From Vicinamibacterales bacterium (GTDB lineage Bacteria; Acidobacteriota; Vicinamibacteria; Vicinamibacterales; UBA8438): a DNA stretch of 64,000 nt. Positions 1 to 60,056 of this stretch are shown here, in pieces; the stretch's first letter is position 1, and every line of letters starts with the position of its first letter. The position numbers and the translations under genes are program-made. The stretch is taken from contig OZ241843.1 of assembly GCA_965202695.1 (NCBI GenBank), forward strand, positions 826,254 to 890,253. Reading direction: 5' to 3'. Under the pieces are notes generated by a model. It did not search any database. It was not told the origin of the DNA and saw only the letters and a program-made list of their open reading frames with translations.

Positions 1-981
1 GACGCCTACGAGGCCGCCCTGGCGCCCCTCTCCGACGACGGACGCCTGGTGCTCACCCGCCGCGAGACGCGGACCGAACCGCCGAACTACTTCGTCCGGG
101 ACCTCGACGCGGGCGCCCGGCGCGCGCTCACCGCCTTCGAGAACCCGGCGCCGCGGCTCGCGGGCATCCGCAAGGAGCTCGTCACCTACGAGCGGGCCGA
201 CGGCGTGCGGCTTTCCGGCACCCTCTACCTGCCTCCGGGGCACCAGGAAGGCGAGCGCGTCCCCCTTCTGATGTGGGCGTACCCCCGCGAGTACGTCGAC
301 CCCCGGCTCGCGGGCCAGGTCACCGGCTCGGACCACCGGTTCACCACGTTCCGCGGCGCCTCCCACCTGCTGCTGCTGACACAGGGGTTCGCGGTGTTCG
401 ACGGTCCCACGATGCCCATCGTCGGCCCCGGCGAGACCGCGAACGACACCTACGTGGAACAGCTCGTGGCGAGCGCCCGGGCCGCGGTGGACACCGTCGT
501 GGAGCGGGGCGTCGCCGACCGCGGCGCCATCGGCGTCGGGGGGCACAGCTACGGGGCGTTCATGACCGCCAACCTGCTCGCCCATTCCGACCTGTTCCGG
601 ATGGGCATCGCCCGCAGCGGCGCCTACAACCGGTCGCTGACGCCCTTCGGGTTCCAGAACGAGCGGCGCACGTTCTGGGAGGCGGCGGACGTCTACGCGG
701 CGATGTCGCCGTTCTTCCACGCCGACGAGATCGACGAGCCCATCCTCCTCGTCCACGGCGAGGTGGACGACAACTCGGGCACGTTCCCGATGCAGTCGGC
801 CCGGATGTACATGGCCCTCAAGGGCCACGGCGCCACCGTGCGCTACGTCACCCTGCCCCACGAGTCCCACGGCTACGCGGCCCGCGAGTCGGTGCTGCAC
901 ACCGTGGCCGAGATGCTGAACTGGGCCGACCGGCATCTGCGGCCGGGAACCGGAACGACCGGCGGGGCCGGGCGGCGGTGA
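1..981 (+). CDS. S9-family (prolyl oligopeptidase/dipeptidyl-peptidase type) serine peptidase, C-terminal catalytic domain; 5' end lies off-window
   Basis: Frame 1 is open from base 1. GGHSYGAF is the nucleophile elbow (GxSxG). HGEVDDN and ESHGY supply the Asp and His of an alpha/beta-hydrolase triad. Confidence 0.85.
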   Translation, partial: DAYEAALAPLSDDGRLVLTRRETRTEPPNYFVRDLDAGARRALTAFENPAPRLAGIRKELVTYERADGVRLSGTLYLPPGHQEGERVPLLMWAYPREYVDPRLAGQVTGSDHRFTTFRGASHLLLLTQGFAVFDGPTMPIVGPGETANDTYVEQLVASARAAVDTVVERGVADRGAIGVGGHSYGAFMTANLLAHSDLFRMGIARSGAYNRSLTPFGFQNERRTFWEAADVYAAMSPFFHADEIDEPILLVHGEVDDNSGTFPMQSARMYMALKGHGATVRYVTLPHESHGYAARESVLHTVAEMLNWADRHLRPGTGTTGGAGRR

Positions 982-1034
982 TGGAACTCCGCGTCGCACC
1001 GCGCCCGAAGGGCGCCGGCGGGCAGTGAACGTCC

Positions 1035-1300
1035 GGCGGACAGAGGACGCCCGCACCGGCAAGGCGTGAGAAGGGCGCATACCGGGCACGTTCAACCGGC
1101 GAACGACGCAGTCGGGCGGGATGCAGCGCGGCTTGCAGTGCGAACGGGGCGTTTGGGCTCGTCAACCCGGGGCAGTTCGTTCCCACCGCGGAATGCTGCG
1201 GCGCGGGCGGCGGGCTGGGGCGATTCACCACGGGCTCGTCAGCCCGGGGCGGTTCCACCACGGGATGCTACGGCGCGGGCGGCGGGCTCTCGGCGTCGTC
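1035..1300. repeat. Cluster of REP/MITE-like repeats: one family-1 copy (about 1035-1150) followed by two tandem units of about 77 bp (starting 1155 and 1232)
   Basis: 1049-1140 aligns by eye with the core of the element inserted in res (caaggcgtgagaagggcgcata...ggcgggatgcagcgc). The unit gggctcgtcaRcccggggcRgtt..ccaccRcggRatgctRcggcgcgggcggcgggct occurs twice. Confidence 0.6.
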
Positions 1301-2361: not shown

Positions 2362-2924
2362 CCGTTTCCTCCTCGGGTCGCTGCACTCCCCGAGCCGGCG
2401 CATCCGCCCGCGGCCCCGGGAGAGCTTCTGAAACTGAAACTGACGGGCCTGCCGCGGGGAGCGTCTCGGCAAGACGCGGCCTCCCCTGCCGCACGTTCCG
2501 CCCACGGCCCCATTGTGACCGGACGGCCCGCCGGCTGCAAGCGCCCGCCGGGCGGCGGTGCGCGGGCCCGCCACCCCTCTTCGCCCTCGTCCCCGAAGGC
2601 AGGCGAAAGCGGGGGACCGCGTCCTCGACAGGCGCGTTGTCCGAGCGTGGGCGCGTCGTCCGGGGTGACGGTAAAGAAGATGAACACGATACCGCCCTCC
2701 GTGGCGTCTACGAAGACGACCGTGGTCGGTACGGACCACGTGACGACGGTCCCGGAGCCTCTCCGACGGGACGCCTCCGAACGTGAAGCGCCCTCCATGG
2801 CCCAGGCGGACGACCCCGGGCGGCGGCCAGCGTCCCCTGTGGTACGCTGGCCGCGTTCCGTCCGACCCACGCGGAGATGTTCGCGGTCGATTCCCGGCGC
2901 CCGCGGACGCGCACGAACCCGACC

Positions 2925-3797: not shown

Positions 3798-3896
3798 AGC
3801 ATGGGACCGCGGCGGGGGCGCGGCGGGACGCTGTCGATGCCGGGGCGCGACGCTCGCGCTGCCGGCGGCGCTCGCGGCCCGACCGAGGTATCGAGC

Positions 3897-5000
3897 ATGG
3901 CCGCCGAACCGCGGCGGGGACGCCGGGCGCCGGACTCGCTGCCGGCGTTGCTGGCCGCGCTGGCGCTGCCGGCGGCGCTCGCGGCCCACGAAGTGCGGCC
4001 CGCCTACCTCGAGCTGACCGAGGTCTCGGCCGGCGTCTTCGACGTGCTCTGGAAGCAGCCGGCGGCGGCGGACGCCGAGCCCGGACTGGTCCGACGCCTG
4101 CCCCTCCGGCCGGCGTTCCCCGCCCGCTGCCGCGAATCCGGGCGGGACGTGCCCGAGGTGACCGCGTCGGCGCTGATCGAGCGCTGGACGATCGACTGCG
4201 GGACCCGCGGGCTGGCCGACGCGCCGATCGAAATCGCGGGCCTGCCCCGCACCCTCACCGACGTCCTGCTGCGCGTGCGCTTCCTCGACGGCGCGTCCGT
4301 CGACCACCTCCTGCGGCCGGAGGCGCCGCGCGCCGAGCCGGCGCCCGCCGCGGGACGCGGGATGGCGGCGCCCGCGTATCTCCGGCTCGGCGTCGAGCAT
4401 CTGCTCTTCGGGTTCGACCACATCCTTTTCGTCGTCGGCCTGACGTTCCTGGTGCGCCGGCCCCGGCAGCTCGTGGCGGTGGTGACGGCGTTCACGGCCG
4501 CGCACAGCGTCACCCTCGCCCTGTCGACGCTCGGCGCGGTGACCCTGCCGCAACGCCCCGTCGAGGCGGCGATCGCGCTGAGCATCCTCTATCTCGCGGT
4601 CGAGCTGGCCGGCGGCGGTCCGGGCGGTCCGGGCGCCGACCGCCGACCGCGCGCGTCCCCGGCGCGGTCGCCGTGGACGATCGCCTTCGGGTTCGGACTG
4701 TTGCACGGGTTCGGCTTCGCGGGGGCGCTGGCCGAGATCGGACTGCCCGAGGAGGCCCGTGCGACGGCCCTGCTGCTCTTCAACGTCGGGGTCGAGATCG
4801 GCCAGCTCGCGGTCGTCGGCGTCCTGCTCGCCCTGCTGTACGGGCTCCGGACCGCGCGGGTCCCCCTGCCCGCGGCCGTCGCGCAGGCGCCGATTTACGT
4901 CATGGGCGCGGTGTCCGCCGGGTGGTTCCTGGAAAGGGTGCTGTCGATCGTGCCGCTGGAATCGCTCGCCGTTCACTTCAGCTTCAACAGCCCGTGGTGA
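3897..5000 (+). CDS. HupE/UreJ-family membrane protein
   Basis: Signal peptide ending AALAAHE. Then GFDHILFVVGL, AFTAAHSVTLALS, FGFGLLHGFGFAGAL and NVGVEIGQL, the hallmark HupE/UreJ TM motifs. The start is uncertain (3801-3897). The stop codon lies inside a repeat arm. Confidence 0.8.
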   Translation: MAAEPRRGRRAPDSLPALLAALALPAALAAHEVRPAYLELTEVSAGVFDVLWKQPAAADAEPGLVRRLPLRPAFPARCRESGRDVPEVTASALIERWTIDCGTRGLADAPIEIAGLPRTLTDVLLRVRFLDGASVDHLLRPEAPRAEPAPAAGRGMAAPAYLRLGVEHLLFGFDHILFVVGLTFLVRRPRQLVAVVTAFTAAHSVTLALSTLGAVTLPQRPVEAAIALSILYLAVELAGGGPGGPGADRRPRASPARSPWTIAFGFGLLHGFGFAGALAEIGLPEEARATALLLFNVGVEIGQLAVVGVLLALLYGLRTARVPLPAAVAQAPIYVMGAVSAGWFLERVLSIVPLESLAVHFSFNSPW

Positions 5001-5045
5001 ACGCCCCGCCGCATCGCGAGCGGCGGCGCATCCCGCCTGCCTGCG
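4988..5045. repeat. Family-1 REP/MITE arm (single arm)
   Basis: cagcccgtggtgaacgccccgccgcatcgcgagcggcggcgcatcccgcctgcctgcg aligns with the arms of the element at 46401-46560. Confidence 0.6.
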
Positions 5046-5204
5046 TCGTTCGTCGGACCGCAAAGCGACCCGCGTAGTCCGGCGCAACTCCGGTTCCCGC
5101 TCTCCAGTGTTCCATCAAGGCCCGGTGCTCGACTTCATGATATGATTTTCTCGCCTTCCGCGGGGCGACGACAGGATACCGTCGAATCGCAGAAAGAGGA
5201 CGGA

Positions 5205-6131: not shown

Positions 6132-6385
6132 TGCGAATTCTGGCCCGCTATTCACATTTGAATGGAGAAGAGTACCTGCTCGTTCACCGCAGGAAACTAT
6201 GGGACGAAGTGCAGGCGGTGATAGCGGAGGTGAACGCCCTTGCGTGCCGGACGAAGGTTTCCAGAGAAAGAACGATGCGCGGCAGAATGTTGTTTTCTCC
6301 GGGCGACATGAACCAAAGTTCAAGGACGGCCTTCACAGCCCGTGGTGAAAGTCGCCCATTCGGGCATTTCGGGAAATCGACATGA
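6131..6385 (+). pseudogene. Truncated restriction endonuclease remnant (BglII/BstYI-like N-terminal fragment, from memory)
   Basis: Its ATG overlaps the methyltransferase stop (TGATG). RYSHLNGEEYL..KLWDEVQAVI..RMLFSPGDMNQSSRTAF resembles my recollection of the BglII N-terminus (YNHADEILNPQLWKEIEETL...SLIFDPVGTNQYIKDEL). The similarity ends at 6335, where a family-1 repeat terminus begins. It has only 84 codons. Confidence 0.45.
6335..6356. repeat. Family-1 REP/MITE terminus fragment
   Basis: cagcccgtggtgaaagtcgccc matches the conserved terminus CAGCCCGTGGTGRAAC. Confidence 0.45.
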
Positions 6386-6412
6386 CGGCTCACCTGTTCT
6401 ACACTGGTGGAC

Positions 6413-8131
6413 ATGGCAATGGGCACGACACGTGACGACGGGTCGCAGCAGTCGATGTGGGTGTCGGCGGCCGACTTGCCGTCGACCCGCGCGAAGCCCG
6501 CGACCGCCGACGAACGTTCCATACCGGGAAGAAAGACCGCCATGAAATCGATGCCGAATATCCGAACCGCGGTGGAGGCAGTCGGCACCGTCGCGAAATC
6601 GGCGAGAGACCGCACGGTCGAAGCGGCCGGCACCGCCGCCAGATCGACGAGGGACCGCACGGTCGAAGCAGCCGGCGCGGTCGGAACCGCCGCCAGATCG
6701 GCAAGGGACCGCACGGTCGAAGCAGCCGGCGCAGTCGGAACCGCCGTCAGATCGGCGAGGAACCGCACGGTCGAAGCGGCCGGCACCGCCGCCAGATCGA
6801 CGAGGGACCGCACGGTCGAAGCAGCCGGCGCAGTCGGAACCGCCGTCAGATCGGCGAGGGACCGCACGGTCGAAGCGGCCGGCACCGCCGCCAGATCGAC
6901 GAGGGACCGCACGGTCGAAGCAGCCGGCGCAGTCGGAACCGCCGCCAGATCGGCAAGGGACCGCACGGTCGAAGCAGCCGGCGCAGTCGGAACCGCCGCC
7001 AGATCGGCGAGGAACCGCACGGTCGAAGCGGCCGGCACCGCCGCCAGATCGACGAGGGACCGCACGGTCGAAGCAGCCGGCGCAGTCGGAACCGCCGTTA
7101 GATCGACGAGGGACCGCACGGTCGAAGCAGCCGGCGCAGTCGGAACCGCCGTCAGATCGGCAGGGGACCGCACGGTCGAAGCAGCCGGCGCGGTCGGAAC
7201 CGCCGCCAGATCGGCGAGGGACCGCACGGTCGAAGCGGCTGGTGCGGTCCAGGCCGTTCTGTGCGAGGCCACCGCGATACAGCTCGTCAACGACAGCTTG
7301 GCCCAGCTCGTGAAAGGGTCCGCAACGATCTACGACAAGGCGATGGACGCGGAGTACCTGGCGACGCATATCGGTGGCGGCAATCATCGGATGTTCGACG
7401 GTGGCCATACGCTCTGGGGGGCCGCCAAGGCCGTCCACGACGCAGGCGGCACCGCCAGCGAGCAGGCCGCGGGCTACGTGCAAGGTCTGGCGCGTGACGT
7501 GACGACGACGAAAGGTTTGCCGCTGGCGACGTGGAGCAAGGACTCCTACGAATCGGTGTCGAACACGCTCCACCTGCCGAACAACTGGTTCTACGACTTG
7601 AACAGCTTCGATGCATCGGAAGTGATCGGTGCGTCGGTTGGAGCGGTCATGCTGGTGCTGCAGTGGCGAAAACCGGACGCCGACAGATTCGGCAAGACGG
7701 TCGGCGCCTTGGGGATCGCCAGTGTCGTCGGCGCGAATCCTCTGCTGATCATCGCAGCCATCGCCGGTCTCGCTCGTCTGTACCAGACCGCCCGGCGGGA
7801 CGGCGCCGGCGTCGAGGCGTTCGACGGCATGGCGCGCGGTGTGACGGCGGGGGGTGGGGCGATGCTCGTCGCGTCGGGAGTCGCAGCCCTCGGCGGCCCC
7901 GTCGGAGTGATAGTTCTGGCGGGTGTCGCGGCCGGAGTCCTGGGCGGCGTGGCAATGGATCGGGTAAGCGTTGCCGGGATAGTCATGCGCATGACGACGA
8001 TGCTGCCCGATGGCCGCAAACTCCGAGAGACCGCGGGCACAGCCGCTACCCGGCTCACCGAAGCCGCCAGCAAAGTAGGCACCAATATCCTGAGCCCGCG
8101 AAGGCAGATAACCGGGACCACGAATCCCTGA
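6413..8131 (+). CDS. Hypothetical membrane protein with an N-terminal array of 15/18-aa tandem repeats and a Gly-rich TM C-terminus
   Basis: About 14 units of RDRTVEAAG(AVG)TAARS(A/T). The C-terminal half contains hydrophobic Gly-zipper-like segments (VIGASVGAVMLVL, LLIIAAIAGLA, GVIVLAGVAAGVLGGVAM). Start is GTG 6407 or ATG 6413. Confidence 0.55.
   Translation: MAMGTTRDDGSQQSMWVSAADLPSTRAKPATADERSIPGRKTAMKSMPNIRTAVEAVGTVAKSARDRTVEAAGTAARSTRDRTVEAAGAVGTAARSARDRTVEAAGAVGTAVRSARNRTVEAAGTAARSTRDRTVEAAGAVGTAVRSARDRTVEAAGTAARSTRDRTVEAAGAVGTAARSARDRTVEAAGAVGTAARSARNRTVEAAGTAARSTRDRTVEAAGAVGTAVRSTRDRTVEAAGAVGTAVRSAGDRTVEAAGAVGTAARSARDRTVEAAGAVQAVLCEATAIQLVNDSLAQLVKGSATIYDKAMDAEYLATHIGGGNHRMFDGGHTLWGAAKAVHDAGGTASEQAAGYVQGLARDVTTTKGLPLATWSKDSYESVSNTLHLPNNWFYDLNSFDASEVIGASVGAVMLVLQWRKPDADRFGKTVGALGIASVVGANPLLIIAAIAGLARLYQTARRDGAGVEAFDGMARGVTAGGGAMLVASGVAALGGPVGVIVLAGVAAGVLGGVAMDRVSVAGIVMRMTTMLPDGRKLRETAGTAATRLTEAASKVGTNILSPRRQITGTTNP
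6566..7250 (+). repeat. In-frame tandem repeat array, alternating 45-bp and 54-bp units
   Basis: The unit gaccgcacggtcgaagc(a/g)gccggc(gcagtcgga)accgccgccagatcg(gc/ac)gag(g/a)g recurs head-to-tail with no unique spacers. Confidence 0.85.
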
Positions 8132-8145
8132 CCGGAGGGTGGCTG

Positions 8146-8292
8146 ATGGCGAATGACGAAGCGACGATTGGCAGGCTGGTTTCACCACGGGCTGTTCAGG
8201 TGCGAGGATGGAACGAGCGCCGAAGCACGTTCTGGGTAACCGCCGACGAGAAGATCCTGCGCAGCGTCTACCACCTGCCGGAGGTCGAGTAG
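8146..8292 (+). CDS. Possible small ORF (48 aa), hypothetical
   Basis: ATG at 8146 preceded by GGAGGG 7-12 nt upstream. No similarity recognised. Weak call. Confidence 0.2.
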   Translation: MANDEATIGRLVSPRAVQVRGWNERRSTFWVTADEKILRSVYHLPEVE

Positions 8293-27406: not shown

Positions 27407-27437
27407 GCGGCGGGCCCGTGGACGCACCGGTTCCTGG

Positions 27438-27495
27438 CCGCCCGTGGTAAAGTCCCCGCTGCATTGCGAGCGGCGATGCGCCCCGCCCGCCTGCC
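27438..27495. repeat. Family-1 REP/MITE arm (single arm, degenerate)
   Basis: ccgcccgtggtaaagtccccgctgcattgcgagcggcgatgcgccccgcccgcctgcc aligns with the arms of 46401-46560. Confidence 0.5.
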
Positions 27496-38856: not shown

Positions 38857-41800
38857 TCACACCCGGAACACCTTCATCACCTCGTCGCCCAGGTGGTTGA
38901 TCACCTTCACGGCGATGCGGCCGGACGCGGGGCGGGGAAACGGGCGCGACGTGTCGCTGCGCAGGGTGGCCCACGCGTCGGGGTCGATCTCGGCCTTGAG
39001 CGTCGTGCGGAGCGCCTTGTACGGGTCGTTGGCGCCGAGGAAGTAGGCGTGGCGGACGAAGAAGCTCTCGTCGTTGTAGTCGGTGTCGATGAACCAGCAG
39101 GCGATGCCGTCGGGGCCGTCGCTGCGGACCTCGCCGGTGTTGGGGTGGAAGACGTCGACGCCGGCGATCCGGACCCGGATGCGGCCGGCGTCGGGCTTGT
39201 CGCCGCCGCCGGGCCTGTCGCCGCCGCCGGGCCTGTCGCTGGTGCCGGGCCTGTCGCCAGCGCCGGGCGTGTTGCCGGAGCCGGACTTGTCACCGGCGCC
39301 GGGGTCGCCGTGCGAATCGTCACCGTCGGCGGGCAGGATCTCGACGTCCGGCTCGCCGAAGACGACGAACAGGTTGCCCTTGCCGGTGTTCTTCAGCTCG
39401 CCGGCCATGTGCAGGTCGGCGTTCATGCGCGCCTTCAGCACGGGCAGGGCGCCGAGCCTGCTGAAGTCGGTGGTGTGCGGTTCGTAGTTGAAGGCGCAGG
39501 CGATCAGCACGTCGAAGCCGGCGTAGCCCGCTTCGCGCGCGGCGCGCACGAGGTCCTGCCGGCTCACCGTGCCGAACTCGGGGCCGACGAGGATGCCGGC
39601 ACGCCGCTCGGGGCCGTCGTCGTCCTCGCTTTCGACGTAGCGGCCCTGGGCGCAGATCAGGTGACCGGGCCAGGGGTCGAGCGCGGTGAAGCGGATGCGG
39701 TCGGCCTTGCGCGCCTGCTGCACGCCGGCGGTGGCGAGGTGGCCGAGCACCATCGCGGCGAAGTCTTCCGCCGACCCGTAGGCGGGGGCCTGCTCGGCGA
39801 CCCGGTCGATCAGCTCGTCGCGCTCGTCGAGGGCCAGCAGGCGGTGCGGCGACAGGCTTTCGACGGTGAACGGGCCGGCGACGCGCACCTTCTTTCGGTC
39901 GTCGTACGGCTTGTCGTAGAGGTATTCGACGTCGGCGCGCGCGGCGATGGAGGCGTCGATCTCCCGCTGCCGCGCGATGCGCGCCTCCCACCACCGGCGG
40001 TGCGCTTCGGCCGCGGCGGCCGGCCACGGGTCGCGCGGCCCGGCGGGGAGATCGGTCAGCGTGTAGCGGCGGTCGAGCGCGGCGTTGACGGCGCGCAGGG
40101 CGGCGGCGCGGTCGGCGTCGGTCCCGGCTGCTTCCAGACGCTTCCAGGCCGCGGCGGCCGCGGGGGGCCACGGCTCGCCGGCGTCGCGCGGGATCTCCCA
40201 CTCCCGCCACGACCGGCCGAGCGCGGCGTTCAGGTCGGCGCGGAGCGGCTCGAGCGTCTCCTGCCAGCGTTCCCAGATGACGTCGATCTCCGCGTTGTTG
40301 GCGATCGACTTGAGGGTGACGTGCGGCACGCGCTCGTAGACGAAGCCCTGCCGGACGTCGCCGCGCGTAGGCGCCTCGGACGGGGCCGCGCCGGTGATTT
40401 CGGCTTCCTTCCGCTGTCCCTCCGGGCTGTCGGCGAGCAGGTAGTAGGGGTAGCGCGCGCCCATGATGCGGGCGCGGGCGAGCGCGAGGGCGACGCGCGA
40501 CGTGTCGATGGTGATCCAGCGGCGGCCCCACTGCTCGGCGACGTAGGCGGTGGTGCCGGATCCGCAGGTGGGGTCGAGGACCAGGTCGCCGGGGTCGGTC
40601 GCGAGCAGGATGCAACGTTCGATGACCTTATTGCTTGTTTGAACTACATAGGTGAGTCCCGTGCCAAGTTGAACAGATTCCCATCTGTCATTTAGAGGAA
40701 CGACAGCAAAATCATCGATACGCCGGATGTATCTGATCGTTCGTCCACTAGAACGAACGCGTCCAGCAGCAGCAAGTCTCGTCAAACCTGCGAAGTTGGA
40801 TTTGGACGTTCCCTGGCCGGGCATGTATGCTACGCCTTGATAAACAAACTCAAGAAGATCTCCTTCTCCTTTCGGGCGAGCGCTCGTCAACGACGTAAGC
40901 TGACATCGTATAACCGCGCCAGCGGTTTCACCGTTTGATTCGTCATCGAGATCGCTTTTGTTCAATCTGCGAAGAGTGCCGTCTTGCGCAATAGCCATAT
41001 CGTAGCGTTCAAGTGTAGTACTCCCGGGTCTGCGTTCCGCATAAAGCCGGCGGTACTTCACTCGTTCAATATTCCTTGCGAAAACCAAAAGGTAGTCGAT
41101 GGTCTGCGGAACAAGTGTTTGATCCGTTGAACCCGTTTTTTGGAAACCTATTGTACCGACGTAATTGTCTCGTCCGAATACCTCATCCATCAGCGCCCGC
41201 ACCCGGTGGACGTTCTCGTCGCCGATCTGCACGAAGATGCTCCCGCTCTCCGTCAGCAGCTCCCGCGCCACGGTCAGCCGGTCGCGCAGGTAGGTCAGGT
41301 ACGAGTGAATCCCGTCGCGCCACGTGTCGCGGAACGCCTTCACCTGCTCGGGCTCACGGCTGATGTGCTCGGCCTTGCCGTCCTTGACGTCGCGGCTGGT
41401 GGTGGACCACTGGAAGTTGGAGTTGAACCGGATGCCGTAGGGCGGGTCGAGATAGATGCACTGCACCTTGCCGCGCAGCCCCTCGCGCTCGGCCAGCGAC
41501 GCCATCACCTGGAGGCTGTCGCCCAGGATCATCCGGTTCGACCAGTTGGCGTCGTGCCGGTAGAACTCGGTGCGGGCGTCGCCGGCGGGCAGGCCGTTGA
41601 AGTCGGCGAACAGGTCGGGCTGCCCGTCCCCGCCCCCGGCGCCCGCCTGCCGCGCGCGGGTCTCGCGCCGCAGGTCGTCGACGAGGACCTTCGGGTGCAC
41701 CTTCTCCTGGATGAAGAGCGGCGGGGCGGGCACGACGAGGTCGGACCAGTCCGCGAGGTCCTTGCCGCGCCAGACGAGCTGCGGGTCGAGGTCGCGGTTG

Positions 41801-41943
41801 CGGCGCTTCCAGGCGGTGCGGACCGGCTCCTGCTCGGCCGGGCCGAGGACCGGCTCGAACTCGGCGGTCGGGATGTTCCGGCGCGAGGCGGCGCCGTGGG
41901 TGAGGGTCTCGACCGTCCTGGGTTTCTTCGGTGTCCGCGCCAT
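38857..41943 (-). CDS. mod: Type III restriction-modification methyltransferase (Mod), beta-class N6-adenine MTase with long C-terminal extension
   Basis: ATG at 41943. IYLDPPYGIRFNSNF (motif IV) precedes VLDPTCGSGTTAYVA (motif I), with a divergent low-G+C TRD between them. The upstream part of the 1160-aa ORF overlaps vapC and is rejected. Confidence 0.85.
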   Translation of the reverse strand: MARTPKKPRTVETLTHGAASRRNIPTAEFEPVLGPAEQEPVRTAWKRRNRDLDPQLVWRGKDLADWSDLVVPAPPLFIQEKVHPKVLVDDLRRETRARQAGAGGGDGQPDLFADFNGLPAGDARTEFYRHDANWSNRMILGDSLQVMASLAEREGLRGKVQCIYLDPPYGIRFNSNFQWSTTSRDVKDGKAEHISREPEQVKAFRDTWRDGIHSYLTYLRDRLTVARELLTESGSIFVQIGDENVHRVRALMDEVFGRDNYVGTIGFQKTGSTDQTLVPQTIDYLLVFARNIERVKYRRLYAERRPGSTTLERYDMAIAQDGTLRRLNKSDLDDESNGETAGAVIRCQLTSLTSARPKGEGDLLEFVYQGVAYMPGQGTSKSNFAGLTRLAAAGRVRSSGRTIRYIRRIDDFAVVPLNDRWESVQLGTGLTYVVQTSNKVIERCILLATDPGDLVLDPTCGSGTTAYVAEQWGRRWITIDTSRVALALARARIMGARYPYYLLADSPEGQRKEAEITGAAPSEAPTRGDVRQGFVYERVPHVTLKSIANNAEIDVIWERWQETLEPLRADLNAALGRSWREWEIPRDAGEPWPPAAAAAWKRLEAAGTDADRAAALRAVNAALDRRYTLTDLPAGPRDPWPAAAAEAHRRWWEARIARQREIDASIAARADVEYLYDKPYDDRKKVRVAGPFTVESLSPHRLLALDERDELIDRVAEQAPAYGSAEDFAAMVLGHLATAGVQQARKADRIRFTALDPWPGHLICAQGRYVESEDDDGPERRAGILVGPEFGTVSRQDLVRAAREAGYAGFDVLIACAFNYEPHTTDFSRLGALPVLKARMNADLHMAGELKNTGKGNLFVVFGEPDVEILPADGDDSHGDPGAGDKSGSGNTPGAGDRPGTSDRPGGGDRPGGGDKPDAGRIRVRIAGVDVFHPNTGEVRSDGPDGIACWFIDTDYNDESFFVRHAYFLGANDPYKALRTTLKAEIDPDAWATLRSDTSRPFPRPASGRIAVKVINHLGDEVMKVFRV
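39193..39318 (-). repeat. Seven in-frame 18-bp tandem units inside mod (Gly/Asp/Pro-rich hexapeptides)
   Basis: Units of gggc(c/t)tgtcgcc(g/a)(c/g)cgcc encode GDPGAG-DKSGSG-NTPGAG-DRPGTS-DRPGGG-DRPGGG-DKPDAG. Confidence 0.8.
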
Positions 41944-41960
41944 GACTGCTGCGCTCTCGT

Positions 41961-42359
41961 TCACGTCTCCCATACCGTCTCGACGTGCGGGTAATCGAGA
42001 ATCCTCGCATCGGCCGTGACGACGGGCGCCGACAACCTGCGGGCTTCCGCGACGATGATCCGATCCGCCGGGTCGCGGTGGAACGGGACAGGCAATGCAT
42101 AGGCTTCTTCGACGGTCCCCAGTTCTACCGGCAGCACCGTCCAGCCGTTCGATTGCACGTGGCCCCGGAACCAGCGGCGCCAATGCCGATCGAGTTCGAT
42201 ACGCCCGCGCTCCGCGGCGCACGCGATCTCGGCGCAACTGATGGCGGAAACGCATACCTTCGTATCGGCCGTTTCCAGGATCGCGACGACCCGGTCGGGA
42301 AGCCGCTCGGGTTCGCTGACCGCCCAGATGATCGCGCAAGTGTCGAGTACGACCGTCAC
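41961..42359 (-). CDS. vapC: PIN-domain toxin VapC
   Basis: VVLDTCAIIW (first Asp), SAISCAEIA, HRDPADRIIVAEA and VVTADARIL are canonical PIN acidic-residue positions. 4-bp overlap with the upstream antitoxin. Confidence 0.85.
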   Translation of the reverse strand: MTVVLDTCAIIWAVSEPERLPDRVVAILETADTKVCVSAISCAEIACAAERGRIELDRHWRRWFRGHVQSNGWTVLPVELGTVEEAYALPVPFHRDPADRIIVAEARRLSAPVVTADARILDYPHVETVWET

Positions 42360-42604
42360 GACGGTTTCTTCCCCAGCATCTCCCAGTCGCCGAGCGGGAT
42401 CATGGGGTCGACCAGACTCTTCTTGACGACGACCGACCCCCTGCCGGAGCCGAGTACCGTCCGGTTGCGTTGATGGGCCGGGATCGGGACTACGCGGGCG
42501 AGAGGCGTGTTCCGTTTCCGGATCTCCAGCTCCTCTCCGTTCTGGACGGCGGCGAGGTACTCGCTCAAGTGGTTCTTGAACTCCGCGACGTTGGCTATCT
42601 TCAT
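42356..42604 (-). CDS. Phd/YefM-family antitoxin
   Basis: MKIANVAEFKNHLSEYLAAVQNGEELEIRKRNTPLARVVP is a Phd/YefM N-terminal fold signature. ATG at 42604. Confidence 0.75.
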   Translation of the reverse strand: MKIANVAEFKNHLSEYLAAVQNGEELEIRKRNTPLARVVPIPAHQRNRTVLGSGRGSVVVKKSLVDPMIPLGDWEMLGKKPS

Positions 42605-42663
42605 GGCCGCATTATAGGCCCTGTCCGAGCGGGGCCGTCCGGGCGCGGCGTTCGTCGCGGCTG

Positions 42664-42915
42664 TCACCGGTTACCCGCGCGTGGGTCGGAATCCGTGGCG
42701 GCCACGGGACGGAGCCGCGCCGCCGGAACCGTGGCCACCGCCGCCGTGCCGCCGTCAAGGGTCAGAAACTCCACCTCGAAGGCCCGGCCGTCGCGATAGA
42801 CGTGCACGATTGTGCCGACGTCTCCCGCCTTCAGGCGCAGGCCGGGAACGTCCTCCGTGAGCACGATGCGATCATGTTCTTCCAGCATCGCTCGTCCGGC
42901 CCGTGGCAGTTTCAT
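42664..42915 (-). CDS. DUF4926-domain protein
   Basis: HDRIVLTEDVPGLRLKAGDVGTIVHVYRDGRAFEVEF matches my recollection of DUF4926. An alternative start is at 42888. Confidence 0.55.
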   Translation of the reverse strand: MKLPRAGRAMLEEHDRIVLTEDVPGLRLKAGDVGTIVHVYRDGRAFEVEFLTLDGGTAAVATVPAARLRPVAATDSDPRAGNR

Positions 42916-43233: not shown

Positions 43234-43455
43234 TCACAACTCCACGTCCCGCGCGACGTCACGGGGCCGAATGAGGTCGACGCCCTCCAGCGGGCAGGCC
43301 GCGAGCAGAGCCTTGAAGCCGCGACCGGACGCGGCGCCGAACCGTTCGCGCAACGTAGCCCGCGCAGCAACCTCGCATTCCGGGTCGCGCAACGGCGCGG
43401 CTACCGTGCGAACGAGCTGGTCCTTGTAGGTTGTTCTGGCAGGCATGGTCGTCAT
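43234..43455 (-). CDS. Hypothetical small protein (73 aa)
   Basis: ORF sits in the position where a toxin would follow the upstream antitoxin, but it has no PIN features. The C-terminus LEGVDLIRPRDVARDVEL looks antitoxin-tail-like. Confidence 0.3.
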   Translation of the reverse strand: MTTMPARTTYKDQLVRTVAAPLRDPECEVAARATLRERFGAASGRGFKALLAACPLEGVDLIRPRDVARDVEL

Positions 43456-43458
43456 CCC

Positions 43459-43905
43459 TCACTCTGGCCCGGCATCATCCCAGTCGCCGGGCGGGATCAG
43501 AGGGTCCACCAGACTCGTCCTGACGATCACCGAACCTCGGCCGGAGCCGAGCACCGTCCGATTGCGTCGGACGGCGCGGGCGTCCGGCGCGTTCCGGTTC
43601 CGGATCTCCGGCTCCTCTCTGTTCCCGAAACCAAGCTCGTCGGCCGGGTCGAGCGGTTCCAGCGTATCGTCCACGTCAGGGAACTCGTCGGGTAGCGGCG
43701 GCAGACGCGCGAGCAGGTCGAGCAGGCGGCCCTTCCCGACCGGTTCGATGACCAAGCGGTCCCCGTCGCGCCAGATGACGGCTTCCGCGCCGTCGATCTC
43801 GAAGTCGCGGGGAATGCGCACCGCCTGACTGCGCCCGCTCCTGAACAACCGTACGCGGCGCACTGCTTCCGGTTCGTCCCGGGACTTCCGCATACCTCGA
43901 ATCAT
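43459..43905 (-). CDS. Chimeric antitoxin: AbrB/MazE/SpoVT-type VapB N-terminus + Phd-type C-terminal tail
   Basis: GGAGG RBS 8 nt before the ATG at 43905. RLFRSGRSQAVRIPRDFEIDGAEAVIWRDGDRLVIEPV is the AbrB swapped-hairpin. The tail RNRTVLGSGRGSVIVRTSLVDPLIPPGDW is near-identical to the tail of the 42356-42604 antitoxin. Confidence 0.65.
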   Translation of the reverse strand: MIRGMRKSRDEPEAVRRVRLFRSGRSQAVRIPRDFEIDGAEAVIWRDGDRLVIEPVGKGRLLDLLARLPPLPDEFPDVDDTLEPLDPADELGFGNREEPEIRNRNAPDARAVRRNRTVLGSGRGSVIVRTSLVDPLIPPGDWDDAGPE

Positions 43906-45091: not shown

Positions 45092-45224
45092 AGCAGGGAC
45101 GGTCCTGCGCCGCGCCCCGGCGCATCGAACGGGGCCACCACGCGGCGGCTGGGCCGCGGTCGCCGCGGGCCGGCGAAGAGGCCGCGCCCCGGCGCATCGG
45201 ACGGGGCCGTCGCGCGGCGCGCGC

Positions 45225-48200
45225 CTATCGGCTCGGGAGGGACGCGAACGTCCGCTCGAAGGCGGCGGAGACGGCGGCGTCGAGGTCGGTCTCCATCGCG
45301 TACGCGGACGTCATCTCCCGGAACGTCCAGCGGCCGAACGCGCCCAGGCGGTTGACGGCCGGGACCCAGTAAGTCTCCATCGCCGTCTTCTTGTCCTTCG
45401 CGTCCTCGCGGCGGTAGCCCTTGACCTCGACCACGAGACGCAGGAGGTCGTCGGGGCCGCGCCCGTCGTCGACGAGCAGGACGAAGTCGGGCAGGTAGCG
45501 CCGGTGCTCGGCGCCGCGGCGGTAGGGGACCTCCAGCCCGAGGTTGTGGTTCTTGACGTACGCCCGCACCCGCGGGTGCGCCTCGGCGACGCGGCAGAAC
45601 TCCGCCTCCCAGTCGCTGTCGCAGACGGCCCAGTCGACGTGGCAGCGCCGGGCGTCGGTTTGCCAGCGGGTCTGCTTCGACGTGGCGAACCGCACGTGCC
45701 GCGTGGACCCCTCGGGGTTGTAGGGGTCGAGCATCGCCTGGATCGGGCGGGTCTCCCGATGCCGCTCGACGATGCCGTCGGTGATGCGCCGGCAGGCGTG
45801 GTCGGCCAGCTCGGCGTACAGCAGTTGCGCCGGGCGCGTGCCCCCTTCGCAGACCAGATGCGCGTCGAGCCACTGCCGGGCGATGCGCTTGAGCTGGCCG
45901 AACAGGTACAGCCGGGGCTCCTGGTTCGGGTCGCGCCACTCGGTCAGCAGCAGATGGCGGGTCAGGTGGTAGAGCAGCGTGGCGCGCCGCACGGCGCCGG
46001 CGCGGACCAGCGTCAGGTCGATCCCCTCGCCGACGATCCCCTCGTTGCGGGTGACGGCGGGGCCGACCAGCTCGGGGGTGAGCACCAGGGTGGAGTCGTC
46101 TTCGAAGCGGGCCGTCAGCCGGTCGTCGGGGAGCTCCACGCGGTAGCCCTGGACGCGCGGGAAGCGGATTTCGCACGCGTCGCGGTCCGGCGTCACCGCC
46201 CGCACCATGACCGTCTCGCGCGGCGGCAGGGGCGGGGCCACCACCGGCTTGGCGGTGAAGTCGAACGGGATGCCGAGCACGTCGGCGTACTCCACGTCGA
46301 ACAGGCCGGTCTCGCCGTTGACTTCGTACGACTGCCGGCGTAGCGCGCGGCCGACGATCTGTTCGCAGAGAAGCTGCGTGCCGAACGCCCGCACGCCCAG
46401 CAGCCCGTGGTGGAACCCCCGCGTCGCACCGAGAGCGGCGATGCGCCCGCCTGACAAGGCGTGAGAAGGGCGCATATTGGGCATATTCAACCGCCGAACA
46501 ACGCAGTCAGGCGGGATGCAGCGCCGCTCGAATGCAGCGGGGCGTTTCACCACGGGCTGCCAGGACGTGGGTGACGGTGCGCGCGTCCCAGCCCTCGCTG
46601 AGCATCGAGACCGACACCACGCAGCGGGTCCGCCCGCCCAGGCGGCCCTCGACGCCGACGGTGTTGACCACCTCGCGCAGCAGGTCTTCGTCGGTGAGCC
46701 GGTCGGCCTGCCGCCGGTCGCCGGTGCGCGCGACGATCTCGCGCCGGAAGCGTTCGATCTCGTCGGCCGCCGCGGCGCGGAACCCCCGGTCGAGCGCCTC
46801 GCCCGAGTCGAGCTGCTCGCTGTCGATCAGCAGCGTCCGGGGTCGGGGGCAGGGGCGGCCGTGCTCGTCGAAGTTGCGGAAGAGCGGCAGGCGGCCCTGC
46901 TCCAGGCTGGTCGAGCCGTCCTCGCGCCGGCGGTGGAACCCGGAGACGTAGTCGTAGACCAGCTTCGACGTGGCGGTGTTGTTGCAAACGATGATGAAGC
47001 AGGGGGGACGCGGATGCCCGCCTCCCGCCACGCGTCGAAGGTCCGCGCGTAGTGGCCGTACAGCGCCTCGAGGGCGGTCACCAGCTTCGTCGGCAGGCGC
47101 AGCGGATCGGCCGCGCCCGCCCCGCGGCCCTTCTTCGGCATCTGCCTGCCGACGTGCTTCCACAGCTCGCGGAACTGGGGCATCTCGGCGCCGGGGACGT
47201 TGTCGGCCACCGGCACGCGCGGCAGCTTGACGATGCCGCACTCGATGGCGTCGAGCAGCGAGAAGTCGCTCGCGGTCCACGGGAACAGCGTCCCCTCGGC
47301 ATAGCCCGACCCGCGCAGGAAGAACGGCGTCGCCGACAGGTCGACGACCCGCTGCAGGCCGAGCCGGCGCCGCACCGCTTCGAGGCCCGACATCCAGATG
47401 CGCGCGGCCTCGCGGTTCTTCTGCGCCTCCTGCCACTCGTCGCCCCGCAGCGCGCCCTCGACCGACTCGGCCGGCCTCTCGCGGTAGCAGTGGTGGGCTT
47501 CGTCGTTGAGCACCCAGATCCGCTTCAGGCCCATCAGCTCGGGCAGGACCCGCTGCAGCATCCGGCCCTCGGTCTCCCGCGTGCGCAGCGGGGCGCCCTG
47601 GCCCTGGAGCAGGGCGCGGCCGACGGCGGAGACGGCCAGCGTCTCGCGCCGCTGGAACGCGTGGTAGTTGGTGACGACGATCTTCGCCCGCTCGAGGTCG
47701 CGGAGCATGTCGGGCGGGACCAGCTCGCGGCTCGCGTAGTAGCTGTCGGGGTCGTGGGGCTGGAGCACGCGCAGGCGTTCGCGGATGGTCACGCCGGGCG
47801 CGACCACCAGGAACCCCCGCGTGAAGCGCGGGCTGGCCGGGCGCCGGACCGCGTTGACGGTCTGCCACGCGATGAGCAGGGCCATGACGGTGGTCTTGCC
47901 GGCGCCGGTCGCGAGCTTCAGGGCCACCCGGTCCAGGGCGGCTGACGGCTCCGCCGCCGCCCCGGCGTTCGCGTTCGCCAGGTGCTCGAGGTAGCCGCGT
48001 CCCTCCCGGCCGATCTTCGGCGCGACCTCGGTCAGCCAGATCACCGTCTCGGCCGCCTCGACCTGGCAGAAGAACGGGCGGACGCCGCCGAAGGCGTGGC
48101 GCCGCCAGTGCCGCAGCAGGCGCGCGGTTTCGGGCGTGACCCGCCACGCGCTCTCCGGCGCCGCCCGCCAGCCGTCGACGGCGCGCCGCAGGCCGTTGAC

Positions 48201-48461
48201 GAACGCCGTCAGGTCGTACTGCTGGTCCGCGGTCCCGACCGCCGCCGCGGTCTCGTCGGCGACCAGCGCGAGCTGCCGGGCGCGGCGTTTCCGGGGCGCG
48301 GGGATCGGCGAGACGTACGCCGAGGGCCGCCGCCCGTCGACGACGCGGTTGGTCGGCCGGTTGTCCGCGTCGAGCTCCCAGTGGCGGCCCGGCCGCTCGT
48401 ACGGCGAGTTGAGGATCGGCCGTTCGTGGAAGGCGTCGGAATCCGCGAACATCCGGGGCAT
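45225..48461 (-). pseudogene. res: Type III restriction enzyme Res subunit (SF2 helicase + C-terminal PD-(D/E)xK nuclease), disrupted twice
   Basis: Walker A LATGAGKTT, DEAH box VLNDEAHH, motif VI-like SMLSEGWDARTVTHVL, nuclease core LPDF...VVEVKG. The reading frame breaks at the G6 tract 47002-47007 and again at a 160-bp insertion at 46401-46560. Confidence 0.8.
46401..46560. mobile_element. Family-1 palindromic MITE/REP-like element (160 bp) inserted in res
   Basis: Termini are CAGCCCGTGGTGGAAC (46401-46416) and, as the reverse complement of the right end, (G)CAGCCCGTGGTGAAAC. The ~55-bp arms are mutually inverted. CAG flanks both sides (46398-46400 and 46561-46563). Deleting 46401-46560 restores ...TVTHVL-LGVRAFGTQLLCEQ in frame. 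Confidence 0.65.

Positions 48462-58536: not shown

Positions 58537-60056
<1,520 letters not shown>

What the first reader, a model, noticed from the sequence alone, without database searches (positions are those of the whole stretch)
46401..46560. 160-bp palindromic MITE/REP-like element inserted into the Type III res gene, flanked by CAG direct repeats
- **Break point.** The res reading frame runs ...SMLSEGWDARTVTHVL (ending at 46561) and resumes as LGVRAFGTQLLCEQIVGR (from 46400) in another frame.
- **Structure of the insert.** The intervening 160 bp has termini CAGCCCGTGGTGGAAC and GTTTCACCACGGGCTG(C). Its ~55-bp arms are inverted copies of each other around a ~50-bp core, and CAG abuts both ends.
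- **Excision test.** Removing 46401-46560 rejoins the helicase motif VI region in frame. This is direct evidence that the repeat family transposes, or is inserted, into coding sequence.
- **Consequence.** The insertion inactivates the nuclease subunit while mod stays intact.
Basis: seen in the sequence. Interest (0 to 1): 0.65.

Follow-up and report, generated by a model that had tools for sequence, protein, structure and literature searches.

The report
Small transposon splitting a restriction-enzyme gene
A 159-bp non-coding mobile element (a MITE that borrows the transposase of an IS1182/IS5-like insertion sequence) has jumped into the nuclease gene of a restriction-modification system in a soil acidobacterium, breaking it while the partner methylase gene stays whole; this is a clean but ordinary example of transposon-driven gene decay.

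Summary
The insert is 159 bp (46401-46559), not 160, and it is flanked by a 4-bp direct duplication, CCAG, not CAG.

- **Empty sites.** Three relatives, one with a 98% identical Res protein, carry the uninterrupted site with a single CCAG. 118 of 120 Res homologues read TH(V/I)LG(V/L)RAFGTQ without a break.
- **A family, not a one-off.** About 24 full copies (78-93% identical) turned up in Vicinamibacterales genomes. Their 4-bp duplications are mostly CTAG.
- **Likely source of the transposase.** The 16-bp ends (CAGCCCGTGGTGAAAC) are identical to the left end of a 1464-bp insertion sequence that also makes CTAG duplications. It encodes a 467-aa DDE transposase whose best family match is IS1182, below the curated cut-off.
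- **What it is.** A MITE, not a REP element.
- **Effect on the system.** Res is frameshifted and stops 17 codons into the element. Mod (1031 aa) aligns end to end with intact homologues.
Res has a second lesion, a 1-nt loss in a C-run, which may be a sequencing error.

This is a new member of a known kind. One side observation is unexplained: the whole element is a hairpin kept by compensatory changes, with a strand bias.

The parts
46401..46559 (+). 159-bp MITE. The top strand as aligned to the family is the window + strand, antisense to res.
   Evidence: Absent from empty sites in L001, L124 and L125. Hairpin z = -8.9. 78-93% identical to about 24 full copies in Vicinamibacterales genomes.
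46397..46400 (.). Left copy of the 4-bp target-site duplication, CCAG
   Evidence: Empty sites have a single CCAG (CTGG on the gene strand). The family shows 4-bp duplications.
46560..46563 (.). Right copy of the 4-bp target-site duplication, CCAG
46401..46416 (+). Left terminal inverted repeat, CAGCCCGTGGTGGAAC
   Evidence: Matches the IS left end CAGCCCGTGGTGAAAC at 15 of 16 bases.
46544..46559 (-). Right terminal inverted repeat. Its reverse complement is CAGCCCGTGGTGAAAC.
   Evidence: 16 of 16 identical to the left end of the 1464-bp IS in L117-L122.
46456..46505 (+). Central 50 bp, the distal part of the hairpin. The promoter-like pair CTGACA-16 nt-CATATT lies at 46451-46478, overlapping this stretch at its left edge.
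   Evidence: Conserved in the family alignment with compensatory pair changes. Promoter-like match, 1 found against 0.0 expected. Function not shown.
45225..48461 (-). res pseudogene (BPTD_3080-family restriction endonuclease), interrupted by the MITE and by a frameshift
   Evidence: The repaired 1025-aa protein scores 1274.7 bits on NF046055 (cut-off 800) and matches Pfam ResIII. It is 98% identical to the intact P0001.
46507..46509 (-). Premature stop codon inside the MITE, in the upstream res frame (...THVLAARGETPRCIRAALHPA*)
47002..47007 (-). Second lesion in res: a run of 6 C where the intact relative has 7 (codons RVPPCF), giving a -1 frameshift
   Evidence: Alignment to L001. Homologues read G(I/V)xVPPCF(I/V)(I/V)VC in 78 of 120 by a strict pattern. 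Could be a homopolymer sequencing error.
38857..41952 (-). mod: an intact N6_N4 DNA methyltransferase gene (1031 aa) of the same system
   Evidence: Pfam PF01555, E = 1.2e-27. Aligns over residues 4-1031 with the 1033-aa and 973-aa Mod proteins next to intact res homologues, 74% identity.
6336..8194 (+). 1859-bp unit bounded by the same terminal repeats, with TTCA on both sides. It is an IS-derived, non-autonomous element in which the transposase gene is replaced after about 31 codons.
   Evidence: Its left end is homologous to the IS left end. The 574-aa ORF contains a 54-bp tandem repeat and matches no family.
970..1165 (+). Decayed copy of the MITE, of the 176-bp variant type, with mutated termini
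   Evidence: BLAST 85% over element positions 44-147. Compare the L004 variant.
4988..5056 (-). Half copy of the MITE (right arm plus part of the centre)
   Evidence: 87% over element positions 91-159.
27437..27494 (-). Half copy of the MITE (right arm), just upstream of an ABC-transporter ATPase gene
   Evidence: 83% over element positions 103-160.
58537..58572 (+). Fragment of the right arm of the MITE in an intergenic gap
   Evidence: 95% over element positions 124-160.

Best explanation
[quoted passage not shown] It belongs to a family that is widespread in Vicinamibacterales (Acidobacteriota). It encodes nothing.

**How it moves.**
- Its 16-bp terminal inverted repeats are the binding and cleavage sites of a DDE transposase supplied in trans.
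- That transposase comes from an IS1182/IS5-like insertion sequence that has the same ends.
- The transposase makes a 4-bp staggered cut at the target, preferably CTAG and here the one-off variant CCAG. It joins the element's ends to the target.
- Gap repair then duplicates the 4 bp.

**What it did here.** The element landed between the codons for ...THVL and GVRAF..., in the helicase motif VI region of a BPTD_3080-family restriction endonuclease gene. The extra 163 bases shift the frame, and a stop follows 17 codons into the element. The C-terminal third of Res, which includes the endonuclease domain, is therefore cut off from the ATPase/helicase part. The cognate methyltransferase gene, 3 kb downstream, is untouched. 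The system is left as methylase only, which is the tolerated direction of decay for restriction-modification systems.

**Shown:** the insertion, the duplication, the empty sites, the family, the identity of the ends with an IS, the frame disruption, and an intact mod ORF.

**Inferred:** that this transposase actually mobilises the element, that Res is non-functional, that Mod is still active, and that the insertion is recent.
For: **The insertion itself**
- Empty sites exist at DNA level in L001 (Res protein 98% identical), L124 and L125. Each has a single CTGG where the window has CTGG-element-CTGG.
- 118 of 120 Res homologues are contiguous across the site.

**A mobile family**
- 24 full-length copies, 68-93% identical, were found in other genomes, almost all Vicinamibacterales or other Acidobacteriota.
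- Of 53 terminal-repeat pairs, 24 have identical 4-bp flanks: 14 CTAG, plus non-palindromic ones such as CTGA, CCAG, TTAG, CTTG and CTAC. The next 4 bp outward match in 0 of 53.

**The partner IS**
- A 1464-bp IS (L117-L122, positions 2437-3900) is flanked by CTAG/CTAG.
- Its left end, CAGCCCGTGGTGAAAC, equals the MITE terminus at 16 of 16 bases.
- It encodes P0121, 467 aa, with DUF772 and DDE_Tnp_1 domains. Its best NCBIfam match is IS1182.
- One genome (CBDAUL01) holds both the IS (L057; L117 is on the same contig as L038) and a full MITE copy (L038).
- The window itself holds an IS-derived unit with the same ends.

**The genes**
- The repaired Res scores 1274.7 bits on NF046055.
- Mod is full length compared with homologues.

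**Precedent.** MITEPye1 of Paracoccus yeei has IS1182-like ends and 4-bp direct repeats (PMC11578231).
Against: - No transposase gene of this kind lies in the 64-kb window, and the source genome could not be found. A partner in this particular genome is therefore not shown.
- Only the terminal 16 bp are shared between the MITE and the IS. The interior is unrelated, so the MITE is not a simple deletion derivative of this IS.
- The transposases score below the curated cut-offs: IS1182 171-194 bits against 270, and IS5_4 105-115 against 140. The family assignment is approximate.
- The target here is CCAG rather than the preferred CTAG.
- A second frameshift in res means the MITE may have landed in a gene that was already dead.
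- The hairpin shows compensatory changes and a G.T over A.C strand bias. Plain DDE transposition does not require either.
Confidence: 0.9

Rival explanations
1. It is a REP/REPIN-type palindromic element spread by a RAYT (IS200/IS605-like Y1) transposase acting on single-stranded DNA hairpins, not a DDE-transposon MITE.
For: - The whole element is one long hairpin maintained by compensatory changes: 21 of 55 pairs, against 7.2 +/- 1.4 in shuffles.
- G.T pairs greatly outnumber A.C pairs on one strand: 84 against 12 cells, 22 against 10 pairs. That is what selection on a single folded strand would give.
- Half copies and tandem arrays exist.
Against: - The element has 4-bp target-site duplications, including non-palindromic ones, and an empty site with a single copy. 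Y1 transposases do not make duplications (established knowledge).
- Its termini are identical to the end of a DDE-type IS that makes the same CTAG duplication.
- It has no GTAG or CGTC head motif.
- At about 158 bp, the unit is far longer than a REP.
Confidence: 0.02
2. The 163 bp is not a real insertion in the organism. It is an assembly or consensus artefact, for example a repeat-induced chimera in a metagenome-assembled genome, or it is present in only part of the population.
For: - The window seems to come from an uncultured Vicinamibacterales genome.
- The nearby C-run frameshift is the kind of error long-read assemblies make.
- The source contig is not in the searchable collections, so no reads could be checked.
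Against: - The junctions are exact: complete terminal repeats on both sides and a perfect 4-bp duplication of the very bases present once in three empty sites. A chimeric join would not reproduce this.
- Flanking res sequence continues at 98% identity on both sides.
Confidence: 0.03
3. The insertion does not abolish function but splits Res into two expressed polypeptides. The element would supply a start codon, and perhaps a promoter, for the C-terminal nuclease part. Alternatively it acts as a reversible off-switch through precise excision.
For: - A GTG at 46553 inside the element opens a 442-aa ORF in frame with the C-terminal part of Res.
- A promoter-like pair of hexamers lies in the element.
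Against: - The promoter-like site is on the opposite strand to res.
- The break lies inside the helicase motif VI region, which is invariant in 118 of 120 homologues.
- A second frameshift upstream already truncates the N-terminal part.
- No intact homologue is naturally split at this position.
- No evidence of excision was found.
Confidence: 0.03
4. The segment is ancestral to this Res lineage and was deleted in the relatives.
For: None beyond its presence here.
Against: - It breaks the frame and introduces a stop.
- It is absent from 118 of 120 homologues spanning 70-98% identity.
- It is a member of a dispersed repeat family with duplications.
- The 4-bp repeat is exactly what insertion, not deletion, predicts.
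Confidence: 0.01

Closest known systems
MITEPye1 of Paracoccus yeei (MITE with IS1182-family ends; PMC11578231)
   Same: - Small, non-coding and hairpin-forming.
- Terminal inverted repeats similar to those of IS1182-family insertion sequences.
- Flanked by 4-bp direct repeats.
- Presumed to be mobilised in trans.
   Different: - Different phylum (Alphaproteobacteria against Acidobacteriota).
- Different repeat sequence.
- Present in only 1-3 copies per genome and reported as intergenic.
- The family here is widespread across many Vicinamibacterales genomes, and this copy sits inside a gene.
IS1182 / IS5 superfamily insertion sequences (DDE_Tnp_1 transposases with an N-terminal DUF772 domain)
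   Same: - The presumed partner IS is 1464 bp with one 467-aa ORF carrying DUF772 and DDE_Tnp_1. A second type in L117 also carries DDE_Tnp_1_6.
- Its best profile match is IS1182, followed by IS5.
- A 4-bp duplication at CTAG-like sites is what I recall for IS5 itself. This is from memory and was not tested here.
   Different: - The scores are below NCBI's curated family cut-offs (171-194 bits against 270), so these are divergent relatives and not certified members.
- The MITE itself shares only 16 bp with them.
Correia elements (Neisseria) and similar bacterial MITEs (ERIC, RUP, Nezha)
   Same: - 100-160-bp hairpin-forming elements with terminal inverted repeats and short target duplications.
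- Dozens to hundreds of copies.
- Can carry promoter-like sequences and affect neighbouring genes (general knowledge; review PMC10969869).
   Different: - Correia elements duplicate TA and have no known active partner transposase.
- Here the duplication is 4 bp (CTAG-like) and a candidate partner IS with identical ends was found.
Rickettsia palindromic elements (RPEs)
   Same: Palindromic mobile repeats found inside protein-coding genes (general knowledge).
   Different: RPEs insert in frame and are tolerated as extra peptide segments. This insertion adds 163 bases, shifts the frame and creates a stop.
REP/REPIN elements mobilised by RAYT transposases
   Same: GC-rich palindromic repeats, dispersed mostly between genes, sometimes in arrays.
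   Different: REPs are 20-40 bp, have GTAG or CGTC heads and make no target duplication (PMC3733652 abstract; general knowledge). This element is 159 bp, has IS-type ends and makes 4-bp duplications.

Membership tests
Prokaryotic MITE | Small size (roughly 50-500 bp) and no coding capacity | tested here: met
   159 bp. Family copies are 156-179 bp. All three minus-strand (gene-strand) frames contain stops or trivial peptides.
Prokaryotic MITE | Terminal inverted repeats | tested here: met
   CAGCCCGTGGTG(G/A)AAC at both ends. Conserved in all family copies.
Prokaryotic MITE | Target-site duplication, shown against an empty site | tested here: met
   CCAG on both sides here, and a single CCAG in L001, L124 and L125. 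24 of 53 pairs have identical 4-bp flanks, against 0 of 53 in the control.
Prokaryotic MITE | Multiple dispersed copies | tested here: met
   One intact copy, one decayed copy and three partial copies in the window.
Prokaryotic MITE | Ends shared with an autonomous IS able to supply a transposase | tested here: met
   16 of 16 identity with the left end of a 1464-bp IS that has a CTAG duplication and a 467-aa DDE transposase. The IS and the MITE co-occur in genome CBDAUL01.
Prokaryotic MITE | Actual mobilisation by that transposase | not testable with these tools
   Needs a transposition assay.
IS1182 family (for the partner transposase) | Protein reaches the curated family score (NF033551, 270 bits) | tested here: not met
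   171.1 bits (P0121) and 193.7 bits (second IS type). IS1182 is still the best hit, and IS5_4 is next at 105-115 against a cut-off of 140. I therefore call it 'IS1182/IS5-like' and do not file it as a member.
IS1182 family (for the partner transposase) | DUF772 N-terminal domain plus a DDE_Tnp_1-type catalytic domain (DDE_Tnp_1_6 in many members) | tested here: met
   PF05598 at E = 2e-18 and PF01609. PF13751 is listed for the 461-aa relative.
REP/REPIN (RAYT-mobilised) | Insertion without target-site duplication; 20-40-bp units with GTAG or CGTC heads | tested here: not met
   A duplication is present. The unit is 159 bp and no such head was seen.
REP/REPIN (RAYT-mobilised) | An associated RAYT gene flanked by the repeats | not tested
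   No RAYT search was made. None of the recurring ORFs next to copies was a transposase of any kind.
BPTD_3080-family restriction endonuclease (Res-like) | Full-length match above the curated score (NF046055, 800 bits) | tested here: met
   1274.7 bits over profile positions 2-969 of 970, on the protein repaired at both lesions. As encoded, the gene is broken in two places.
Restriction-modification system with a separate Mod | A cognate N6/N4 DNA methyltransferase gene nearby, with conserved pairing | tested here: met
   Mod lies at 38857-41952 (PF01555). The same res - small genes - mod layout occurs in L001, L124 and L125.
Restriction-modification system with a separate Mod | Methyltransferase and nuclease activities | not testable with these tools
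   Needs methylome data or restriction assays.

The most novel reading that the evidence does not exclude
This MITE family may be more than a passive hitch-hiker.
- Its entire length is a hairpin preserved by compensatory substitutions across genomes.
- Wobble (G.T) pairs are concentrated on one strand.
- A conserved promoter-like hexamer pair lies on that same strand.
- Most intergenic copies look co-oriented with the neighbouring gene.

Together these would fit an element selected at the level of a single-stranded transcript, such as a mobile RNA stabiliser, attenuator or small-RNA module. They would also fit an element whose transposition goes through a strand-specific folded intermediate. 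The copy in res would then also emit an antisense transcript into the 5' part of res.
Probability: 0.1. Interest if true: 0.55.

Novelty: new member of a known kind. Interest (0 to 1): 0.3.

Why it matters
- **A worked example of RM decay.** It documents, with empty sites and a candidate partner transposase, how a restriction-modification system decays in the safe direction: the nuclease is lost and the methylase kept. The host belongs to a very abundant but poorly studied soil lineage.
- **A previously undescribed family.** As far as the searchable literature shows, this MITE family and its IS1182/IS5-like partners in Vicinamibacterales have not been described.
- **Practical use.** Such repeats break assemblies and gene calls in these high-GC genomes. 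The family consensus could improve annotation of acidobacterial genomes assembled from metagenomes.
- **No change to principle.** It does not alter any principle of transposon or restriction-modification biology.

Tried and rejected
- **Rfam.** A scan of the whole window found only a tRNA and nothing at the element.
- **Plasmids.** BLAST of the element against PLSDB plasmids gave no match.
- **Recurring neighbour ORFs.** I looked for the partner transposase by clustering ORFs that recur next to terminal-repeat hits. The recurring clusters were ABC-transporter ATPases and PQQ-dependent dehydrogenases, which are simply common neighbours.
- **Long terminal-repeat pairs with matching flanks.**
  - L035 2217-3946 turned out to be a MITE plus a solo end around a proline-dehydrogenase-like gene.
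  - L090 6059-7949 has flanks that do not match.
  - Matching CTAG flanks do not discriminate, because CTAG is the preferred target.
- **Solo ends in Nannocystaceae and in an unclassified MAG (L058, L015).** These lie beside dnaN and kinase genes, with no transposase.
- **Source genome.** Exact-protein look-ups for three window proteins were not on record.
- **attC site.** I considered an integron attC site because of the GTGAAAC/GTTTCAC motifs. They do not fit the RYYYAAC/GTTRRRY cores, and the element makes duplications.
- **Intein, intron or in-frame RPE-like insert.** Rejected because 163 bases shift the frame and a stop follows.
- **Literature.** Searches for an existing description of this family in Acidobacteria or Vicinamibacter found none.
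- **Orientation of copies.** A crude GC3-based gene caller was used to test the orientation of copies. It is too rough to support a claim.
Full report
**1. What is in the sequence**

The window is about 72% G+C. On the minus strand, 48461 to 45225 encodes a Res-like protein broken into pieces. One frame ends ...SMLSEGWDARTVTHVL at 46561. Another resumes LGVRAFGTQLLCEQIVGR from 46400.

The bases in between start CAGCCCGTGGTGGAAC and end GTTTCACCACGGGCTG. They fold into a single long hairpin:
- as DNA, -61.5 kcal/mol against -35.8 +/- 2.9 for shuffles, z = -8.9;
- as RNA, z = -8.5.

The arms are about 55 bp and about 79% complementary, around a 50-bp centre.

**2. It is an insertion, and its exact limits**

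I repaired the two frame breaks by hand. The resulting 1025-aa protein matches NCBIfam NF046055 (BPTD_3080-family restriction endonuclease) over the whole profile, at 1274.7 bits against a cut-off of 800. It also matches Pfam ResIII.

A protein search found intact homologues, the best of them 98% identical (P0001, 1033 aa). Its contig (L001) aligns to the window at 98% on both sides of the element. L001 bases 11933-11936 (CTGG) align to both flanks.

The window therefore has 163 extra bases: a 159-bp element (46401-46559) plus a second copy of CCAG (46397-46400 and 46560-46563 on the plus strand).

Two more relatives (L124, L125; Res proteins 86-87% identical) have the same uninterrupted DNA, ACCGTCACCCACGTCCTGGGCGTGCGG. 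Of 120 homologues, 118 read EGWDAxxVTH(V/I)LG(V/L)RAFGTQ without interruption.

Removing 163 bp restores the wild-type sequence.

**3. It belongs to a mobile family**

The window holds further pieces:
- a decayed full copy at about 970-1165;
- half copies at 4988-5056 and 27437-27494;
- a fragment at 58537-58572.

I scanned one genome per species for CAGCCCGTGGTGRAAC. A 16-mer is expected by chance in high-GC genomes, and many single hits in unrelated phyla look like that. Vicinamibacterales genomes, however, are heavily over-represented, and they contain the whole element: 24 full-length copies of 156-179 bp, 68-93% identical to the window copy.

The window shares 84-88% identical syntenic DNA with one of these genomes (L049, CAXXVU020000002.1). 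The host is therefore a Vicinamibacterales bacterium.

Flanks of the copies show 4-bp direct repeats, mostly CTAG. Of 53 terminal-repeat pairs, 24 have identical 4-bp flanks:
- 14 are CTAG;
- the others include the non-palindromic CTGA, CCAG, TTAG, CTTG and CTAC.

None of the 53 match in the next four bases outward. The non-palindromic cases, and the window's CCAG checked against an empty site, show that these are true duplications and not an extension of the inverted repeat.

**4. The likely source of the transposase**

One solo terminus (L057) is followed, about 70 bp inward, by an ORF with a DUF772 domain and the start of a DDE_Tnp_1 domain. The full protein (P0121, 467 aa) is encoded on several contigs.

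There the element is 1464 bp and is flanked by CTAG on both sides:
- its left end is CAGCCCGTGGTGAAACGG...;
- its right end is ...CCCTTTATCCACGGGCTG.

The left end equals the MITE terminus at 16 of 16 bases. Beyond that the sequences are unrelated.

A second IS type next to it (461 aa, also with DDE_Tnp_1_6) has ends CAGCCCGTGGTGAAAG....

By NCBIfam both transposases are closest to IS1182 (171 and 194 bits) and then to IS5_4. Both are below the curated cut-offs. I call them IS1182/IS5-like and do not file them as members.

The same genome (CBDAUL01) carries this IS (L057; L117 lies on the same contig as L038) and a full MITE copy (L038). A published parallel exists: MITEPye1 of Paracoccus yeei has IS1182-like ends and 4-bp direct repeats (PMC11578231).

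No such transposase gene lies in the window. However, 6336-8194 is a 1859-bp unit with the same ends and TTCA on both sides. Its first 150 bp are homologous to the IS left end, including the first 31 or so codons of the transposase.

**5. Mechanism and consequence**

The best-supported reading is standard DDE transposition in trans, in three steps:
- the transposase binds the 16-bp ends;
- it makes a 4-bp staggered cut at a CTAG-like target and joins the element's ends to it;
- gap repair duplicates the 4 bp.

The steps shown here are the structure, the duplication, the empty sites and the shared ends. The catalysis itself is inferred.

In res, the upstream frame runs into the element and stops after 17 codons (...THVLAARGETPRCIRAALHPA*, stop at 46507-46509). 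This separates the ATPase/helicase part from the C-terminal part, which carries the endonuclease domain (a weak PF19778 match at residues 892-971).

Mod (38857-41952, minus strand, PF01555) is a complete 1031-aa ORF. It aligns over residues 4-1031 with the Mod proteins next to intact res genes in L124 and L125. The layout res - small variable genes (nucleotidyltransferase/HEPN, antitoxin-like, DUF4926) - mod is conserved.

**6.

Res has a second lesion. A run of seven C in L001 (codons RVPPCF) is six C here, at 47002-47007. This shifts the frame about 450 bp upstream of the MITE. It may be a true mutation or a homopolymer sequencing error. I cannot tell without reads. Either way, the MITE alone is enough to break the gene.

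**7. Rivals**

- **REP/REPIN mobilised by a RAYT.** This is contradicted by the duplications and the IS-type ends.
- **Assembly chimera.** This would not reproduce perfect ends plus a duplication of the exact bases seen once in three empty sites.
- **Ancestral segment deleted elsewhere.** This is contradicted by the frameshift, the stop and 118 of 120 homologues.
- **A split but functional Res.** A GTG at 46553 opens a 442-aa ORF in frame with the C-terminal part. This is unlikely given the break in an invariant motif and the second frameshift.

**8. An unexplained side observation**

I aligned 21 copies. The consensus fold pairs nearly the whole element. Pair counts on that fold:

| Measure | Observed | Controls |
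|---|---|---|
| Cells forming standard pairs | 96.7% | 31-44% when partners are slid by 1-3 columns |
| Pairs with compensatory changes (of 55) | 21 | 7.2 +/- 1.4 in shuffles; 2-7 when slid |

On the strand as aligned (the window plus strand), G.T pairs outnumber A.C pairs: 84 cells against 12, and 22 pairs against 10. The same strand carries a promoter-like CTGACA-16 nt-CATATT at 46451-46478.

Relatedness of the copies inflates such counts, and my orientation check was crude. I therefore report this only as a lead. It suggests selection on a single folded strand, which ordinary MITE biology does not require.

**9. Verdict**

It is a new family of a well-known kind of element doing a well-known thing. 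Interest is modest.

Noticed in passing
window 6336-8194: A 1859-bp unit is bounded by the same terminal repeats, with TTCA on both sides. Its left 150 bp match the left end of the IS1182-like IS through about 31 codons of the transposase. The rest is a 574-aa ORF with twelve 54-bp tandem repeats and a glycine-rich C-terminus, and it matches no Pfam or NCBIfam family. It looks like an IS whose transposase gene was replaced by a passenger gene.
   Followed up: partly
window 47002-47007: The res gene has a run of 6 C where the intact relative (L001, Res protein 98% identical) has 7. This gives a second frameshift, independent of the MITE. It is either a real mutation or a homopolymer sequencing error.
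   Followed up: partly
window 45095-45240: About 146 bp between the res stop and the nucleotidyltransferase/HEPN gene are absent from L001. They consist of two copies of a 39-nt GC-rich hairpin repeat (GCCGCGCCCCGGCGCATCGRACGGGGCC...). No other copy was found in the window or in the fetched loci.
   Followed up: partly
window about 40651-41173 (inside mod): This stretch of mod has no DNA match to L001, although the flanks are 88-99% identical. That fits a swapped target-recognition region, and so a different methylation specificity.
   Followed up: no
window 41945-42673 and 43260-43619; L001 14857-15169: The block of small genes between res and mod differs between the window and L001 by insertions or deletions of about 730, 360 and 310 bp. 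The gene content of this spacer also differs in L124 and L125.
   Followed up: no
L016 5767-6201: Three copies of the MITE lie head to tail with 162-bp spacing, joined by the 4 bases CTGC. This is a tandem array rather than dispersed insertions.
   Followed up: no
L106 7969-7997; L103 about 6579-6635; L013 7879-7907: Very short palindromes (29-57 bp) are made of little more than the two terminal repeats and are flanked by CTAG-like bases. They may be minimal derivatives of the same transposon system.
   Followed up: no
L043, L051, L062, L083 (Thermoanaerobaculia); L036, L073 (Planctomycetota); L104: Elements of 133-385 bp have the same 12-16-bp termini and CTAG flanks but unrelated interiors. 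The same transposase type seems to serve several MITE families in several phyla.
   Followed up: no
alignment A6 (21 copies); window 46401-46559: The whole MITE is a hairpin kept by compensatory changes: 21 of 55 pairs, against 7.2 in shuffles. G.T pairs far exceed A.C pairs on one strand (84 cells against 12). The same strand has a promoter-like CTGACA-16-CATATT at 46451-46478.
   Followed up: partly
window 27437-27494 and several loci (L023, L099, L004): MITE copies or halves often lie immediately upstream of ABC-transporter ATPase genes or PQQ-dependent dehydrogenase genes. By a crude gene call, about 11 of 13 intergenic copies are co-oriented with the adjacent gene.
   Followed up: partly
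window 48431-48461 and upstream: Similarity between the window and L001 stops at the 5' end of res. The upstream genes are unrelated (a 791-aa repeat protein here, PhzF in L001). The res-mod block therefore sits in different genomic contexts, as expected for a mobile defence island.
   Followed up: no
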